From positions 1 to 64,000 of the forward strand of contig JAVKOQ020000047.1 in assembly GCA_031835245.2 (NCBI GenBank): DNA of 64,000 nt, written 5' to 3'. Under the pieces are notes generated by a model. The model searched no databases. It was not told the DNA's origin and saw only the letters and a program-made list of their open reading frames with translations. This DNA comes from Balamuthia mandrillaris. Its lineage: Eukaryota. Positions 1 through 63,420 of the stretch are shown piece after piece; position 1 is the stretch's first letter, and the number at the start of each line of letters is the position of its first letter. Made by a program: the position numbers and the translations under genes.

Positions 1-489
1 AGGGATGTCTTTCAAAAGGTTAGTTGAAAAGTCCAACGACAACAACTTGTTCATGGAACAGAGCTCCAAAGGAAAGGTCGCTATTTCGTTGCAGCTAATG
101 TCTAACTTTCGCAGCTCGCTGAGAGTCCATGTCTTGGCGGGCACTTCAGTGAGGGCCAAGTTGCTGAGGGAGAGGTTGCGTTTGATTTTGCCTTGCTTGG
201 TGAGGAAGGAGAGTCTTCGGTCACCCTTGCCTGGCTTGTCTTTTTGAGCTTTGTTGGGCTTGGGCTTGTCTCGTCCTGGTATGGCCTCCACCTTCTCACC
301 GACGGTGCTGATAGCCTTCATCCAGTCGTTGCGTTCCTCCACCGAGTCCGCCTCTATGACGAAGACCTTGCCTTTGCTCACCATCTGAAAGCATTTGGGT
401 CGGTTGCACAGGTCGCAGAGGTAGCAACCCAAGTCGATGACTCCTTGTGGCGTCGTTGTTGGCTGGTTTTGTAGTGTTAGTCTTTCTTG

Positions 490-29664: not shown

Positions 29665-29781
29665 TGTAGTAGTAGTAGTAATAAAAAGTTTATTTGCTCT
29701 GAGAGCAACACCAATCTATACATAAAAAGTAAGCCTTGTACATACATAGTGTACTCTTACTTTTCTTACTCCCTCATCCTC
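29665..29781 (-). mobile_element. Non-LTR retrotransposon 3'-end fragment with (TAC)n tail
   Basis: Reverse complement of 33852-33945; similar sequence also at ~62860-62965. Confidence 0.65.
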
Positions 29782-31929: not shown

Positions 31930-34900
31930 AAGGAACATTGGACAAAGCTGGAAAGGAAAGATTCTTCTATTGGGAGCTTGCATCAAGAGGAAGCAGGTCC
32001 AGAAGGACCGTCTTGGTCTGATAGCAACAGGCTTAAGAAGGAGAGCTTTAATCTTGCATAGAGGAAAAGATTGAGGGTGGGCAAAGCAGCTGGAGTGGAT
32101 AATATCAATGGGAAAATGATGAAGTATGGAGGTAAACATGTGCAAGACACAACTTGGACACTGATCAAGGCCATTGAGAACCAAGGCGTGTTCTCCAAGG
32201 AGTGATAACAAGAGGTGGTTATCCCCTTGCATAAACTATAGAGGAATTACTCTCCTATGCAACACAGCCAAGGTGTTTGAGGGAGCTATCTTGGTGCAAT
32301 TAAACATACAAGCAAGAGAGCAAGGGTGGATAAGTGATTACCAGGGCGGATTTAGAAAAGGAAGAGGAGTCATGGATCAAGTGTGGTGGTTGAAGAAATA
32401 CCTGATGAAGAGAAGCAAAGAACGTAATTATATTGCTCTGTTAGATATCAGCAAGGCATACAACATGCTTGACCATAACATACTGGCAAGGACATTGTGC
32501 AAAAGAGGAGCAGAAGAGGCAGCAGATAGCATTATTGCAGAGTGGTACTGTGGTATGACAAGTGTCATTCACATGAATGGGCAACTCTCTAAGGAATTTC
32601 TGGTAAAAAGAGGAGTTAAGCAAGGAGGAGTTTTATCTCCCTTCTTGTTCAATGTATATGTATATTGGCTTGGTTGTAAGAAAGCTATAGGTGACAGAGG
32701 AAAAGGAAAGAGGAAATAAAGCAAGGAATGTTTGCTTGTTGTTTGCAGATAATTTGGCAGTGGTGACCAGTGATCCTTTTGATCTTCAGAGAAGACTGAA
32801 TGTGATAGTGGAAGCATTGAATGCTCTGGGACTCCAGTTCAATGCCAAGAAATCAGTGGTACAAGGAAAGAAGGCTTGCAGAAAAGAGTGGAGACTAAAG
32901 GGGAAAGCTGTGAAACGTGTGAAGGAGGCCAAGTACCTGGGACTGTGGTTTGAAGAAAGTGGTGAGTGGACAACCCATGCTAAGGAGAGGATGCTCCTCC
33001 TCAGCCAGTACAAAGCCAGAGAGTTCCAATGAGCTGTCCAAAGCCACTGTTCCTATATTCTCCTCCTTTTTCTTCCTCCCTATTTCTTTGCTCTTTAGGC
33101 TTCCACAGCGGTTTGCCTTCATTCTTGGCTTGTTAGATTCAAGCTTTGCCTACCCACCAGCAGGTGAAAGCATACAGCCTGGCTCTTTTCACAATAATGT
33201 CTTCAGCAGCCTGGGCCGTCTCCAGAGTAACTCCTTGATGCTGCATGCCATTCTTCTCTCCTACTTTCCACACTTCGACTTACTTGAGCCCCAACTCAAA
33301 GATCCTCTTACAAACTTTTTCCTTCTTAAGGTCCTTATTGTTCACCACAATTGATCTACCCTCCACAGCTCCTACCTTGGAGTAGGGACTGACAAAGCCA
33401 TACTTTGGTTTTACTGTAGACCAATAGTTTGGGTCAGTTACTGTATCATTGGTCCATGTCCTCCTGTATATATATTGAAGTTATCCTGCCAACTTATCTC
33501 TTGATCTTTTGCCATTTCTTCCTTTCAGTATTCCAAGCTTAGTGCACTAGCTATAGTTACCATTGGAGGGAAATTCCTTTCTGCAGTAATCTGGTCACAC
33601 CATGGAGCAAATTCGACGACCTTTGTGTATAACTGTTGATAATGGGCACCCAGAGCAAGACCACCTTTGGTACCTTTTGCACTTCCTTTTTCCTCACCAT
33701 AAGATTATTAATCTCCTGGACATCAAGAAGAGAATCTTGGACCTGGTCAAGGAAAGTGATTATTGGAGGAGATTGGAATGCCAGGGTTGGAAAGGCTGGA
33801 ATGATAGAGGTGAATCTACTTACAACAGGACATAACAATTGGGAAGGCATTGAGGATGAGGGAGTAAGAGAAGTAAGAGTACACTACATATGTACAATGC
33901 TAACTTTTTATGTATAGGTTAGTGTTGCTCTCAGAGCAAATAACTTATACTGCTTACAACAGGAGAGGTGCTGATGGAGTCTTTCAAAAGGCTGGCCCTC
34001 TTAGTGCCTCAGCTTGAAGAGGAAATACCAGTGTTTACATGGAGAGCTGGAAAACAAAAGAGCATTGTGGACTATGTGGTAGCATGGAATGGCAAGGTAG
34101 CTGGCAATGAGTGACAAGCATGGACTGATCATCAACCTCTGGTAGTGGAGTTGAAGGATTCAGCAGATCATTGCAATGGAGTTTGGATGGAACATTGAAA
34201 GTGGAAGTCCTACTTGGAGGAAGATTGCAAGAGGAGGTTGAGGGAGTACAAACATGGATGGGTGCAAGTGTTTCTTCAAAGGAGAGGAATGGAAGGCCAT
34301 ACATTGATGAGTGGATCTGGCCATGAAGGAATGTCTTAGACTGGGGACCCTAAACAGTAATTGTTCATGAAAGCCTGGTGCTGGAAAAGTATAGGCACCT
34401 GAATACTGTCACAGTCAAGTTTCCTCCTTCTCAAAGGGCTAACCAAAAGGAGGAGGATGACAGAGGTGCAGAGGATCAGCGTAACTCAGTAGTGGATTCA
34501 CCCCACCAAGAGGAAGGGACCAGTGTTGTGCCCAAAAGGAAGATTGATTCAGACTCAGTCAGTGTGAACAACATTAAGGCAGACCAACAGTCAAGTAGCA
34601 CTGCTGTTCGATTGTATTAGCAGTGTTTCTCATGAGTGTGATAAGCTTTCTGAGGTAGGCGTACTTTCACTTACAATGATTGTATGATTCAGGGGCCTGA
34701 TTGAATTCCATAGTACCTCCTGGAGGGAGATACACTATATTAATTATAAAGATGCAACTCTGTCCCACTAGTTCCACCCAAGTTGAGTTGGGTGTTTGCT
34801 GCTTTTTCTTTTTTCTGATGTTTCCCTGAAAGCCCTCTCAAACGAAGAACCCTGCATCACCCCTTCCATAGCCACTCTTCCCTGGAGTAGCCCCTCTACC

Positions 34901-53112: not shown

Positions 53113-53391
53113 GCCTTCCCTTTCTTCTTGCTTGTTGTGGTGGTTGTTATGGTCTCCCCCTTGGAAAAAAAAAAAAGAGGAGTAACAGAGAAGAAGCAGC
53201 AGCAAATTCTTCTCTTCCCTGCACAGGGAGGCTGCTGCTTGCGCTGTTGTTTGTGTGGCTGGCCACACCCATTTCAGTGCACCAAAATTTGGGTTGAACC
53301 CCCAGTCGGAAGGAAACCCAGGTCGTCCTGGTGAGGTCTTTCCCGCCAAAATAGCCACAAAAACGTATCCCCAAAAGAGAGAGATAGAGAG

Positions 53392-55260
53392 ATGGAGGAG
53401 GCGGCGGAGGGGAAGGAGGTTGCTGCTGCTGAGAGTCCGAGTGGTGCCGCCCTGCGCACTCTTCGCCTCAAGAAAATTATCAAAGAGAATCATGGAGTTG
53501 CCATACAGCAGATAGCTTTTAACCTAGCAGACCCTGCCAACACCAACCTGGTGGCTACTGTTGCTGCCACACAGGTATTGTCTGTCTTTTGTTTTCGCCT
53601 TATCCGCTGTTGGGATGTTGTTGTTGTTTTCTTCTTTCTTCCTCACATAGAAGAGTACAGGCAAATATTTATGATAATCAACATTGTGGAGATAACCTGG
53701 ACCTCATGTCTCATTTTCTTAACCCGGCCGACGAACACCGCCAAGAAACAACCGTACGCTTCCCCTTACTATGAACCTACTAGCGACCATTACCGCCATC
53801 CCCAACGCCCAAACTGGAAGTACTAATGAAGGCACCGCTTGTGCAGTTAAATACGTGTTGTTGGATGGCTGCTGCCAGCGAGAGTGAGAGAGACACGTTC
53901 CTTGTGATAGGCGGCTCAGATGGTCTTATCCAACTCCTTAGCGTGGCTAGAAGCTGCGTGTTGTCTCATCTGGAGGGTAAGGAAACAAGAAAAACCTCCC
54001 TCACAAGTCCCATCCATGCTCGTTCTAACCAATACTACCACTGCTAGGCCACACTGATGCTGTTGTCAATGTGGAAGCTCACCCGACACGGAAGGGCTTG
54101 CTTTTGTCTGTTGGTAAAGACTGCCGGGTGTTCCTGTGGGATTGTTACCCTCCCACTCTTCCCTCGCGGAAGCCTCTCTGCTGTTTTGCTACAAGTGCCT
54201 TATGCACGGTCTGGTTACCAGCGGCTTTCTATCTTTCTTTTTTTTTCCCCTTGTAATCTGCACTAACGTGATAGGGTTTTTGTTTGCAGTGTGTGAGTAG
54301 TGATGGGCGATGGTTTTTAACGGGCGAAGCAAACGGCGCCCTTCAGCGATGGGATATTCCAAGTGAATACCTCACTGGGGCATCAACAGCCAGCCCCCAC
54401 GACCAGGATACAACGGCTCAACTGCCAACATTGACCGAACACCAAGCCATAGCCGCCACCCATGGAGCTGATATTGGTAAAGAATGAGAAGTTCTCCAGT
54501 TGCTCACCAAGCAACACCGTTCATCTAACAAACATATATACAGACTGCATACGCCGGGTGGGGAGCTATGGCTTTGCCTCCAAGTCCGTTGATGGCAGAA
54601 TTATTCTTTGGCGGCACGATCAAACATCACCGCCTACTCTTATCGAGCAGGTTACCCCTTTATCATATTTCCTGTGAATCGCGGTGCACTTCAGTTACTG
54701 ACTCTCTCTCTGCCTCATATGTGCGATACCAATCAAACAAGGCAAGCATACGGATAGCAGGCTGTAATCGACAAGTCACCAGTCGCTTTGATGTGTGCCA
54801 GGAGGGCCGGTTTCTCTGTGCTGGCAATGCGCAAGGCGCTGTTTTTCTCTACGACTTGCGTCCAACTCCATACCCTGCTGCTGGTGAAGGTAGAAGCAAT
54901 GGCAGTGATAAAGGAGACATATCACAACCTCAGTTGCTGACTCGTCTGGAATACCGACGGAGAGGTAATGTGTCCTCGGGGAAAGCTGCTGTGCGATGTT
55001 GTGTCTTTTCGGCTGATTGCCGCCATATGCTGGTTGCTGGCTGTGAGCCGTACCTATGGCGGTGGAGCGCGCCTCCTGAAACAACGCACCCACCGCCACC
55101 AGGCGATAGTAAAAGCGGAACACCTACCAATGAGAATATAGAGCAAGAGGAAGAAGAGGAGCAGCAAGAGGAAGAGGAGGAAGAACAAGAACAAGAGGAT
55201 GAAGAGGACGAAGAAGAGAAGAACAAAAAACCCAGGAAAAAAGCCAAACTATCTTCATAA
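53392..55260 (+). CDS. EED/ESC/FIE-like WD40 protein (multi-exon)
   Basis: Motif order matches EED: ENHG..FN, ATV, TCCW, GHTDAV..HP..LLSVGKD, H..IDCIR..SKS, RF..AGNAQG..DL and RCCVFS..LWRW. Confidence 0.72.
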
Positions 55261-60200: not shown

Positions 60201-60884
60201 ACCTTGCCCTTTTTTCCTATGATGAAAAGAATGCAGGTTTGTGTCACCTAATTTCTTGTCATCCTCTTTTCTACCTTTGTTTGACATAAGCTTTGCTCTC
60301 TTTCCTTTCAATAGACACAACTCCCTTCAGGCTCTTGAAGAAAGTAAAAGCCCACGAACGTATCATATGGGGAAGCGCTTGGTCGCACGATGATAAATAC
60401 GTTGCCACAGCTTCTAGGGACAAAAAGCTGAAAATTTGGAAGTTAGACGCTGAACAACAGGATCTATCGTTGCATGCTACCATTGCATTCAACACTGCTG
60501 TCACATCTGTAGAGTGGGCTCCCTCTTTCGGCCATCCTACAAACGACTACCTGCTTGCCGTGGGATTGGAGACTGGTATCATAGCATTGTGTTCTGGTTC
60601 TTTGTCCGCTTCTGGGGACACTCAGTGGCAGCTTTTGCTTTCCTTCCCTCCTTCGTATGTCCTTCTCCCCTCCTTTTTTTCCCTTTTCTGTTGGAGCAAT
60701 CAGTATTTCCGCTCTACTAATGCTGCTGCAAACCAATTCTAGAATCTGTCACACAGCAACTGTGCGACGTTTGCGGTGGAGAGGTGAAACTACGGAATCG
60801 TCTACCGCACGTGTAAGTTGGCAGTTGGCCTCATGTGGCAGTGATCATGCTGTTAGACTCTTTAGCATTCGTGTGAACGTGTGA
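57289..60884 (+). CDS. ELP2: Elongator complex subunit 2 (WD40; multi-exon)
   Basis: Motifs [78 protein letters not shown] and AHERIIW. Confidence 0.96.
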
Positions 60885-61478
60885 GAGGCGTTGTCCCCTG
60901 GGCCTGCGTCCTGACGAATAAATATCGTGTTTTCGTGCGGGCAACAAACACACAACGGGGAGGTGGCAATTTCTGTCGACTGCTTCGCTTTCGGCTACGG
61001 ATGGCCTCATCTCTTTTCTGGAGAAGAGATGAGGGGTCATCACCACCCTTCATTGCCATGAAAAATATTGAAACAAAAAAGAATTGCTGCCCAAAAAATT
61101 TTTGTATTATTTATTTATTTGTAAAGGGCCACGGAAGAAGAAGCAGAAGAAGAAGGAGGGGGTTATAGCAGAAGAGTGCTCAATTGTAACAAGCGACCGG
61201 AACGAAAATTGCCTGACCAACTCCTCCAAGTTGCTTAGAACTTGTTGTACTTTTTGAATTTATTATTATTTATTATTGCAAAGGAGAGGGGAAAGGGGAG
61301 GCGGAAGCAGGCAGCGAGCAGCACAGCTCCAAGGATAACGTGGGATATACTGGCGAGCTTGTACTAGTATCGCCGTGGCTCCACTCTTCTGTCGAGGAAC
61401 GGCCGTTTCTATTTTAAATTTTTATTTTGTTAGGTAGGACCAAGTGTTCCAGAACCCGCCCCCGCCCCCGCCGCAACA

Positions 61479-62564
61479 ATGAGTTTGAACATGAGCAAGA
61501 AGGAGGCCAAAAAACGGGCCAAGGAAGAGAAACGCAAACTTAAAGAAGAAAAAAAGGAGGCCAAGCGCCGAGAGAGGCAGCAGAAGAGAGGGGGACGACC
61601 ATTAATCGGGCAAGAGATCTCGGGACCCACAAACTTTTCTCACGACACACACGTAGGCTGGGATGCCGAACAAGGCTTCGAGGTACGCGATGGCGCATTG
61701 TCTTTCTTTCCGTGGATGTTACTATTGGGGCAGCCTTTCTAACTTTGCGTTGTGCTCCTTCCTTGCTGATGCTGCTCTGCTCTACTTGCTCTCTGTTGCT
61801 CCCTCCTCCAACTTGGATGGCGACAGGTTCGAAACATACCACCCGAATGGAAGAAGCTCTTCAAAGACGCTGGTGTGCGGAAGAGTGAGCTACAAGACCC
61901 AGAAACTCGAAACCTGCTTATCAATACGGTGCGCCAGTCCATAATGTTGTCACGCTCGCCGCTGGCGGATGACGCACCTCCTCCACCACCAACAGGGTCG
62001 GCTCCTCCGCCCCCCAGTGGAGGCCCACCACCACCAATGCCTCCTCCAGCTGCGCGGGCGCCTCCTCCAGCTGCGCCTCCCGCTGCTTCTCGCCCTCCTG
62101 TGGAAGTTGGTCAACGGGTCATTGCTCAATGGAACGAAGACTTGCAGTGGTACAACGCTGTGGTGGACTCTATTAAAGAGGAAGGAGGGACATTTATCTA
62201 TGCAGTTACCTTTACCGACTATGGCAACTCCGATACGGTCACCATTGAACAAATGACCGGTCCGAACGGAGAAGACTTGAAAGCCCTTGCTGCTCAAAAA
62301 CCGCCTGCTGCTGCTCCTGCTCCTACTGGCGCAGGAGGGCTTGCTGCTGCTTTGGCTGCCAAAGCTGGCAACTTGCGTTCTGCTTCTACTCCTCTAGAGC
62401 TGTCTAACATGACTCAGGAGGAAGAGGGCAATATAGTGGACAGTATACAGAAGGCTCTTAGTGCGCGAAGGCAGGGCATGTGCTTTTCTGTTTATGGCCA
62501 TGACGCTGTGCCAGATGGTGAAGATGACTGGAGTGATGAGGACGATTCATGGATGGACTTTTAG
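61479..62564 (+). CDS. WASP-like nucleation-promoting factor: basic-CRIB/GBD-polyPro-Tudor-WH2-C-A, with no WH1
   Basis: ISGPTNFSHDTHVGWD..GFE/VRNIPPEWKKLFKDAGV (GBD), polyproline, Tudor AQWNEDLQWYNAVV..VTFTDYGN, LAAKAGNLRS, IVDSIQKALSARR and acidic DDWSDEDDSW. Confidence 0.88.
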
Positions 62565-62859
62565 TGACCTGTTACTTTCTTTTATTCTTGTTTTCTTCTT
62601 GCTTGCTTTTGTCTTTGTTTTTTTTTGTGTTTGTAAACGAATTTGCCAAGTGACTTTTGAACAAACATGAAACATAGTTAAGCAGGATCCAATGTTGAGG
62701 TATAAAAGGCAGGGTATGCCAGTGTGGGACTCACGGAGGAAAGAGGGAGGAAAAAACTGGATGGCTAAGTTAGGGTACTCATTCCGTCTCGCCGGGCTCA
62801 CCAAAAAAGGCAATAACAGAGGAGAAACCGGTGGTGGGGAAGTGCAGAGATCTGGGCTC

Positions 62860-63420
62860 AGTAGTAGTACCTATACTTCTAAGAAGGTTATTTGCTCTGA
62901 TTGTACCTACTTAGTGTACTCTTACTTCTGTTACACCCTTATCCTCAATGCTTTCCCAATTGTTAACTAGAACAAGTGAAAGGTGTTGAATGAGCTTTTA
63001 GACTGGCTTGGTACAATAACTATCTATACTTAGTCAATCTTTCCAAAGAATTGGACATTCTAATAGGAAGTGTTCTCTTATTTCTTCCTCTGTATTGCAT
63101 GCTAGGCACTTGCTGTTTTCTTTAGATTAAGTTTCCACTTTTTTCAATAAGCAGTCCTGTAACAACAAATAGCATTCATCAAACATTTAAGTTGGTAATC
63201 ACTAAGCTATATTGTTGTTTAACTATTAGCTGAGACCAATAACATGTGGGTAAAATCACCAACACTTATCTTAAGACTCCTCATGCACAAAATGCCATAT
63301 TCTTAAGTCTTCTTTCTTTCCCCTTTCTCTTGGTGTTGTATGTCTTTTATTATCTTGAATACACTTCTTGTCTTGTCACTAACTCTTTTATTCTTAAGGA
63401 TGGATTCAATCAACAAACAT
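62860..63420 (-). mobile_element. Degraded LINE 3' fragment
   Basis: Shares sequence with 36421-36468 and with the 3'-end element at 29665-29781 and 33831-33952. Confidence 0.65.

What the first reader, a model, noticed from the sequence alone, without database searches (positions are those of the whole stretch)
61479..62564. WASP-like Arp2/3 activator lacking WH1 but carrying an SMN-type Tudor domain
Seen: a basic N-terminus, full CRIB/GBD and polyproline, then VEVGQRVIAQWNEDLQWYNAVV...YAVTFTDYGN (~62100-62255) in the same exon as WH2-like, central-helix and acidic Trp segments. The W/Y/F/Y/N cage positions of SMN/SPF30-type Tudor domains appear intact. Only ~600 bp separate the gene from the ELP2 stop, and no WH1 exons are evident. 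I do not know this architecture from described WASP-family proteins. Inference: it may couple Rac/Cdc42 signalling and methyl-arginine reading to actin nucleation.
Basis: partly seen in the sequence, partly recalled or inferred. Interest (0 to 1): 0.78.

Follow-up and report, generated by a model that had tools for sequence, protein, structure and literature searches.

The report
Tudor-bearing WASP-like protein of amoebae
An expressed amoeba gene encodes a WASP-type actin regulator that lacks the usual WH1 targeting domain and carries a Tudor domain, a layout shared by many related amoebae, which likely lets methyl marks on partner proteins steer where branched actin forms.

Summary
Real. The gene has two exons (61479-61682, 61827-62564), 313 aa, identical to a Balamuthia mandrillaris NCBI protein annotated only for its CRIB. 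RNA confirms the single intron, reads through the Tudor, and shows no upstream AUG or WH1 exon. The Tudor passes Pfam SMN_Tudor, folds as Tudor (pLDDT 95-97) and is closest to SPF30; all four cage positions are aromatic in 17 of 17 family members. The layout basic-CRIB/GBD-polyproline-Tudor-WH2-like-C-acidic recurs in 16 distinct full-length clusters (named: Balamuthia, Luapeleamoeba, Stygamoeba; all Discosea) that form one clade and share a private S-[VAIL]-Y motif after the C helix. Lack of WH1 is not new: it is the WAWH class (Kollmar 2012), and one supplement row lists an uncharacterised Acanthamoeba CRIB/Tudor protein, not filed as WASP. New is an old, conserved Tudor-WAWH subfamily. Best model: GBD-C autoinhibition released by Rac, with the Tudor as a methyl-arginine-dependent targeting module; the WH2 is degenerate, so activation may be weak. 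Ligand and Arp2/3 activity are untested.

The parts
61167..61478 (+). 5' untranslated region, unspliced, no AUG; in-frame TAG at 61431-61433
   Evidence: X1 contigs tile from 61167 without a joint; X7/X8 reads cover it; no ATG and in-frame stop
61479..61682 (+). coding exon 1 (aa 1-68): basic helix and CRIB
61491..61589 (+). Lys/Arg/Glu-rich helix, aa 5-37 (19 K+R, 7 D+E before the CRIB)
   Evidence: helix 5-37 in model; counts
61617..61658 (+). CRIB core (I-S-x-P-x-x-F-x-H-x-x-H-V-G), aa 47-60
   Evidence: PF00786; WASP/N-WASP GBD best PDB hits E 4e-11
61683..61826 (+). 144-nt GT..AG intron, phase 0, inside the GBD; same position in L004-L007
   Evidence: joint in X7, X8, X9, X1, X2, X3
61827..62564 (+). 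coding exon 2 (aa 69-313 + stop)
   Evidence: one contig each in X1 and X2 runs from exon 1 across the Tudor to beyond the stop
61827..61940 (+). WASP autoinhibitory (WAID) half of the GBD, aa 69-106
61971..62099 (+). polyproline region, aa 117-159
   Evidence: sequence
62100..62258 (+). SMN/SPF30-type Tudor domain, aa 160-212, cage W170 Y177 F197 Y200 N202
62334..62384 (+). degenerate WH2-like helix plus L-R, aa 238-254
   Evidence: fails strict pattern; L251 invariant in 17 of 17; helix 240-248, low pLDDT
62415..62477 (+). central (C) helix, aa 265-285, hydrophobes at 271/275/279 then RR
   Evidence: pLDDT 86-90; aligned with the autoinhibited WASP core 1t84
62466..62495 (+). family-specific R-R-x-G-hydrophobic-S-[VAIL]-Y motif, aa 282-291
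   Evidence: 17 of 17 members, 0 of 40 other WASPs
62514..62561 (+). acidic tail with two Trp (W303, W310) ending W-M-D-F
   Evidence: both Trp columns 17 of 17; WxxF at the C terminus 13 of 17 vs 0 of 40
53335..55260 (+). WD40 gene linked to the orthologue in another amoeba (microsynteny; bounds approximate)

Best explanation
This is an expressed WH1-less WASP-family protein (WAWH) carrying an SMN/SPF30-type Tudor domain between its polyproline region and its WH2-like/C/acidic tail, and it likely works as a Rac-switched Arp2/3 regulator whose Tudor would bind a methylated arginine on a partner protein to set where it acts. Shown: gene structure, expression, domain order, Tudor identity, cage conservation, one clade across Discosea. 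Predicted by model: the C helix packs on the GBD as in autoinhibited WASP. Inferred from WASP biochemistry (recalled): Rac-GTP on the CRIB and acidic lipid on the basic helix free the tail; the C helix and acidic Trp engage Arp2/3; polyproline recruits SH3 proteins and profilin-actin. Inferred here: the Tudor takes over the targeting role that WH1 has in WASP, and because the WH2 is degenerate the output is weak or conditional nucleation.
For: Splicing and read-through. Tudor: Pfam above cut-off, SMN_Tudor matched in 17 of 17 members at E<=1, family profile's best Tudor in PDB is SPF30 (E 2.2e-10), then TDRD1, TDRD3, SMN, all methyl-arginine readers; model pLDDT 95-97; top structural matches TDRD3 Z 9.9/rmsd 1.8/57 res, SMN Z 9.4/rmsd 1.8/57 res. 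Cage: aromatic at all four positions in 17 of 17 (W15/Y2, Y17, F16/Y1, Y17), N in 14 and E in 3 while Tudor identity to P0001 is only 32-60% in the six orthologues measured. Autoinhibition: 1t84 aligns over model residues 55..294, Z 7.8, rmsd 5.7, 91 of 107 residues. C-domain and acidic Trp fit the published description (PMC3298513 section 11). One origin: 16 of 16 GBD-bearing members form a clade, UFBoot 99, on columns that exclude the Tudor and SVY motif. 9 of 10 coding differences in reads of another strain are synonymous. SMN and SPF30 Tudors bind methyl-arginine through this cage (PMC3281842 abstract and passages).
Against: No ligand or activity was measured. The WH2 fails the published pattern in 17 of 17 members, though it also fails in 35 of 40 related WASPs, so the pattern is a blunt test here; two deep-branching members (P0039, P0050) keep a near-canonical WH2. 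Three of 17 have E for the cage Asn. Structural Z-scores do not separate methyl-arginine from methyl-lysine readers (MRG15 chromo Z 9.5). The 1t84 match is modest (Z under 8, rmsd 5.7). P0008 is a near-copy of P0024 lacking 101 residues including the Tudor, joined at a 2-residue Ala-Pro overlap: a single Logan record, either an assembly skip or a real Tudor-less form. Read depth is low (70, 56 and 5 reads; X9 does not cover the Tudor), so a minor skipping isoform could be missed. The invariant SVY motif is unexplained by this model.
Confidence: 0.52

Rival explanations
1. The protein is an attenuator or endocytic adaptor rather than an activator: it binds active Rac and occupies Arp2/3 through C and A without delivering actin, and its terminal acidic WxxF would dock on the AP-2 alpha-ear at clathrin pits.
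For: Degenerate WH2. Dictyostelium WASP-B and WASP-C localise to clathrin puncta, RacC activation rises without WASP-B, and the cited paper's title calls its role attenuating (PMC8305917 passages). WxxF at the C terminus in 13 of 17 vs 0 of 40; NECAP 1 binds the alpha-ear sandwich through a C-terminal WxxF (PMC3794858 passages).
Against: The 13 share ancestry, so this is one event; 4 of 17 lost the terminal F. Many WASPs carry W plus F/Y in the acidic region, and a WH1-bearing Acanthamoeba WASP has a similar WH2 helix and also ends in MDF (supplement of PMC3298513). L251 of the WH2 stays invariant. This rival does not explain the Tudor.
Confidence: 0.2
2. The Tudor reads a methylated residue on amoeba actin itself and so serves as a second, methylation-gated actin-binding site in front of the weak WH2.
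For: The Tudor sits directly before the WH2-like helix in every member, and the WH2 is weakest in the clade that holds the centramoebid members. Dimethyl-lysine in amoeba actin is attested by two paper titles seen only in reference lists (PMID 5212577; PMID 5021605); the site Lys326 is recalled, not confirmed for Acanthamoeba. Actin R256 and K326 monomethylation are reported in yeast nuclear actin (PMC8860185 passages). E for N in 3 of 17 cages could suit methyl-lysine (inference).
Against: Closest sequences are methyl-arginine readers, and TDRD3-type cages select against methyl-lysine. No direct evidence; related WASPs without a Tudor have equally odd WH2s.
Confidence: 0.12
3. The Tudor acts in cis as a second latch, binding the protein's own arginines (the RR-x-G at the end of the C helix or an RG before the CRIB) or the SVY motif, so that methylation or Tyr291 phosphorylation tunes autoinhibition.
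For: Tudor and SVY motif co-occur: 30 of 32 GBD+Tudor records have it (the two without are short records), 1 of 62 GBD records without Tudor has it; S289 and Y291 are invariant.
Against: Co-occurrence reflects one clade. RR is conserved in ordinary WASPs too. RG/RGG near the CRIB is not universal (4 of 17 have no RG at all). The SVY stretch has low confidence and no strand in either monomer model.
Confidence: 0.11
4. The Tudor is a passenger (recent insertion, mis-annotation or relic without function).
For: P0008 lacks it; a degenerate copy fused to C2 exists (P0157).
Against: Transcribed in the mature RNA, kept in 16 clusters from three named genera in two orders, cage conserved, an intron sits inside the Tudor in another lineage.
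Confidence: 0.05

Closest known systems
WAWH type I (WASP without WH1; Kollmar 2012, PMC3298513; Dictyostelium WASP-B/WASP-C)
   Same: Basic region, CRIB, WAID, polyproline, VCA-type tail, no WH1, amoebozoan.
   Different: A Tudor domain between polyproline and WH2, an SVY motif between C and A, a terminal WxxF. The word 'tudor' occurs 0 times in the paper's text and supplement, and five family motifs were not found in its alignments (gaps or line breaks could hide a motif).
WASP / N-WASP
   Same: GBD is the best PDB match (E 4e-11); model resembles the autoinhibited core 1t84; C helix and acidic Trp.
   Different: No WH1; degenerate WH2; Tudor insertion.
SPF30 (SMNDC1), SMN, TDRD3 single Tudor domains
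   Same: Fold, and W/Y/F/Y/N at aligned positions.
   Different: Those are RNA-processing or transcription proteins; here the domain lies in a cytoskeletal regulator and its ligand is unknown.
[quoted passage not shown]
   Same: CRIB plus Tudor in a centramoebid; probably an orthologue (inference).
   Different: Filed under 'Others', uncharacterised, not recognised as WASP-like. Its sequence could not be fetched, so orthology is untested.

Membership tests
WAWH type I | No WH1 domain | tested here: met
   WH1 profile finds nothing in the window or in 17 members; 5' UTR unspliced with in-frame stop
WAWH type I | Basic region before the GBD | tested here: met
   19 K+R in 42 aa
WAWH type I | CRIB plus WAID (GBD) | tested here: met
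   PF00786 62.8 bits; WASP GBD hits
WAWH type I | Polyproline region | tested here: met
   aa 117-159
WAWH type I | WH2 matching the family pattern | tested here: inconclusive
   Strict pattern 0 of 17, but also only 5 of 40 related WASPs; helix plus invariant Leu present; P0039 and P0050 near-canonical
WAWH type I | C domain (three spaced hydrophobes, basic doublet) and acidic Trp | tested here: met
   I271/I275/L279, R282 R283, W303 and W310
WASP proper | N-terminal WH1 | tested here: not met
WASP-family nucleation-promoting factors | GBD-C helix autoinhibition | tested here: inconclusive
   Predicted only: 1t84 match Z 7.8, rmsd 5.7, 91 residues over 55..294
WASP-family nucleation-promoting factors | Activates Arp2/3 complex | not testable with these tools
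   needs an actin assembly assay
SMN/SPF30-type Tudor | Tudor barrel | tested here: met
   PF06003 above cut-off
SMN/SPF30-type Tudor | Four-aromatic cage plus Asn | tested here: met
   Asn113 of SPF30 named; the role of the four aromatics as the cage is recalled
SMN/SPF30-type Tudor | Binds dimethyl-arginine | not testable with these tools
   needs binding assays
AP-2 alpha-ear WxxF ligands (NECAP type) | Acidic WxxF at the C terminus | tested here: met
   motif present in 13 of 17; description
AP-2 alpha-ear WxxF ligands (NECAP type) | Binds the alpha-ear sandwich subdomain | not tested
   no AP-2 sequence of this organism was on hand (no genome held)

The most novel reading that the evidence does not exclude
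The first Arp2/3 regulator that reads a methyl mark directly: discosean amoebae swapped WH1 for a Tudor cage that recognises methylated actin (long reported to carry methyl-lysine in these amoebae), making actin methylation a licence for branch nucleation.
Probability: 0.12. Interest if true: 0.87.

Novelty: new variant of a known kind. Interest (0 to 1): 0.56.

Why it matters
WASP-family activators are known to be targeted by WH1, SH3 partners, lipids and GTPases. A conserved methyl-residue-reading cage inside one would link protein methylation directly to Arp2/3 control, a link I did not find in print (searches; closed-access papers are not covered). It adds a fourth WAWH layout, gives a small, foldable domain whose ligand can be fished out, and offers a possible reader for the methylated actin of these amoebae. 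The scope is one amoebozoan class, which limits the general impact.

Tried and rejected
No genome was held for this window, so paralogues, Racs, methyltransferases and AP-2 of the organism were not surveyed. Complex prediction of Tudor (157-216) with the tail (266-313) returned 'no answer', score 0.00, alignment not used: no evidence either way. First fold with 12 sequences was poor outside the Tudor (mean pLDDT 54); 57 sequences gave 75. Region search on aa 158-313 found only 2 proteins among 1852 candidates, a sensitivity limit. ESM Atlas: best feature hit 0.75 (WASL-like), structure hits under the naming bar; only large clusters are searched, so this says nothing on novelty. The run index listed no holder on record as RNA. 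No earlier scan findings by sequence or words. A short GC-AG intron removing the SVY stretch was considered and rejected: no such joint, and contigs read through. An upstream coding exon was rejected. The linked WD40 gene could not be named. Four papers were not held, among them the primary WASP-B study and Veltman and Insall 2010, which could mention this layout. The search was swamped by insect wasps (15 of 195 listed) and is uninformative. All homologue searches were length- or rank-limited (87-581 aa; best 150 of 2784), so longer Tudor-WASP fusions are not excluded.

Full report
Observation. The gene starts at the ATG at 61479, has one GT..AG intron (61683-61826) and ends at 62564, giving 313 aa. 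The same 313-aa protein is in NCBI as a Balamuthia mandrillaris 'p21Rho-binding domain containing protein', an annotation that names only the CRIB. Domain order: basic helix (aa 5-37), CRIB and WAID (45-106), polyproline (117-159), Tudor (160-212), WH2-like (238-254), C helix (265-285), a short motif (282-291), acidic tail with two Trp. The upstream gene is ELP2, 594 nt away.

Expression. Raw RNA reads of the same species (about 3-5% of three runs; 70, 56 and 5 reads laid) show one joint only, the predicted intron, in 4, 8 and 2 reads; X7 and X8 cover the Tudor bins, X9 does not. One spliced contig each in X1 (898 nt) and X2 (879 nt) runs from exon 1 through the Tudor past the stop; these two runs are RNA by guess only, but they are spliced. 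A DNA contig of X5 spans 61010-63000 unspliced. Transcript cover begins near 61167; from there to the ATG there is no AUG, and an in-frame TAG lies at 61431. A WH1 profile that recovers 24 held-out stored proteins finds nothing in six frames of the window. So WH1 is absent and the Tudor is in the mature message. Depth is too low to exclude a minor skipped isoform. Of 10 coding differences in the reads, 9 are synonymous.

The Tudor. It scores above Pfam's SMN_Tudor cut-off; its best solved relative is SPF30 (E 4.4e-7) with W170, Y177, F197, Y200 and N202 on identical residues. With a 57-sequence alignment the domain is modelled at pLDDT 95-97; Foldseek's top rows are Tudor domains and VIA-align gives TDRD3 Z 9.9, rmsd 1.8 and SMN Z 9.4, rmsd 1.8 over 57 residues. 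Methyl-lysine readers score as well by shape, so fold does not fix the ligand; by sequence the family profile prefers SPF30, TDRD1, TDRD3 and SMN, which bind methyl-arginine (PMC3281842, abstract and passages).

The family. Searches gave 239 stored proteins at the time, of which 94 carry the GBD and 32 carry GBD plus Tudor, in 17 clusters at 90% identity, one of them a fragment read through an intron. In none does the GBD start later than residue 89, leaving no room for WH1. Named members are B. mandrillaris, Luapeleamoeba hula (P0030) and Stygamoeba regulata (P0050), all Discosea, in two orders; the rest are environmental. In the 17-row alignment A5 (16 GBD-bearing proteins plus fragment P0091; P0186 and a near-duplicate locus were left out) all four cage positions are aromatic in 17 of 17 and the Asn is kept in 14. 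A tree on GBD, WH2, C and A columns, without Tudor or SVY columns, 56 of 57 rows (P0091 dropped), puts 16 of 16 members in one clade with UFBoot 99, beside WH1-bearing WASPs (91); the root is arbitrary and the outgroup was gathered with the family's own profile. This fits one origin from a WASP paralogue by WH1 loss and Tudor gain (inference). Genomic loci L004-L007 share intron 1 and have a further intron inside the Tudor, and L004/L007 share a linked WD40 gene with the window. One record, P0008, is P0024 minus 101 residues including the Tudor, joined at an Ala-Pro overlap; I could not tell assembly skip from real deletion.

Mechanism. The model aligns with the autoinhibited WASP core 1t84 across residues 55..294 (Z 7.8, rmsd 5.7, 91 residues), so the C helix is predicted to fold back on the GBD. 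From established WASP biochemistry (recalled), Rac-GTP and acidic lipid would release it, and C plus acidic Trp would engage Arp2/3. The WH2 is the weak link: it fails the published pattern (PMC3298513 section 11) in 17 of 17, though also in 35 of 40 related WASPs, and keeps an invariant Leu. I therefore read it as a weak or conditional activator whose Tudor supplies targeting by binding a methyl-arginine protein (0.52). Rivals: attenuator or clathrin/AP-2 adaptor (0.20; Dictyostelium WASP-B/C sit at clathrin puncta, PMC8305917 passages; WxxF motif, PMC3794858 passages); reader of methylated actin (0.12; methyl-lysine in amoeba actin seen as reference titles only); cis latch (0.11); passenger (0.05).

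What is known. WH1-less WASPs of amoebae were named WAWH in 2012, with three types, none with Tudor (PMC3298513 abstract and passages; supplement searched for 'tudor' and five family motifs with 0 hits). [quoted passage not shown] A search for tudor, WASP family, nucleation promoting factor and amoebozoa (3 of 4 terms) listed 9 papers, only one holding 'tudor', an Fe65 review (listing only). PMC11673790 has no 'tudor' in its text. Subscription papers and four unavailable papers were not seen.

Verdict. It is a new variant of a known kind: a conserved Tudor-bearing WAWH subfamily of Discosea, noted before only as a two-domain label. Interest 0.56, since the architecture is solid and testable but ligand and activity are inferred.

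Noticed in passing
window 53335-55260 (+) and L004:1882-3362, L007:3118-4141 (-): A WD40 gene 6-8 kb upstream of this gene matches, collinearly, the gene directly downstream of the orthologue in another amoeba; it is the only other hit of those loci in the window. The gene is unnamed.
   Followed up: partly
P0113 (and P0232, P0233): A related protein with two family-type Tudors and a WH2/C/acidic-like tail but no CRIB in the record: a possible further offshoot or a 5'-incomplete gene call.
   Followed up: no
P0157: A degenerate copy of the basic-CRIB-Tudor part fused to a C2 domain, without the VCA tail.
   Followed up: no
P0029, P0028: Proteins with 8 or more tandem SPF30-like Tudor repeats (one with a helicase C domain) are among the closest Tudors outside the family.
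   Followed up: no
window 62750-63000: Multicopy repeat downstream of the gene: high contig depth and many variants, with partial copies at 33833-33898 and 29736-29781.
   Followed up: partly
P0012: A WASP-like protein with a partial GBD followed by an SH3 domain and a VCA-type tail: another domain inserted into a WH1-less scaffold.
   Followed up: no
window 60654-60743: ELP2 last intron seen as loose ends at 60743 in RNA reads, consistent with the gene ending at 60884.
   Followed up: no
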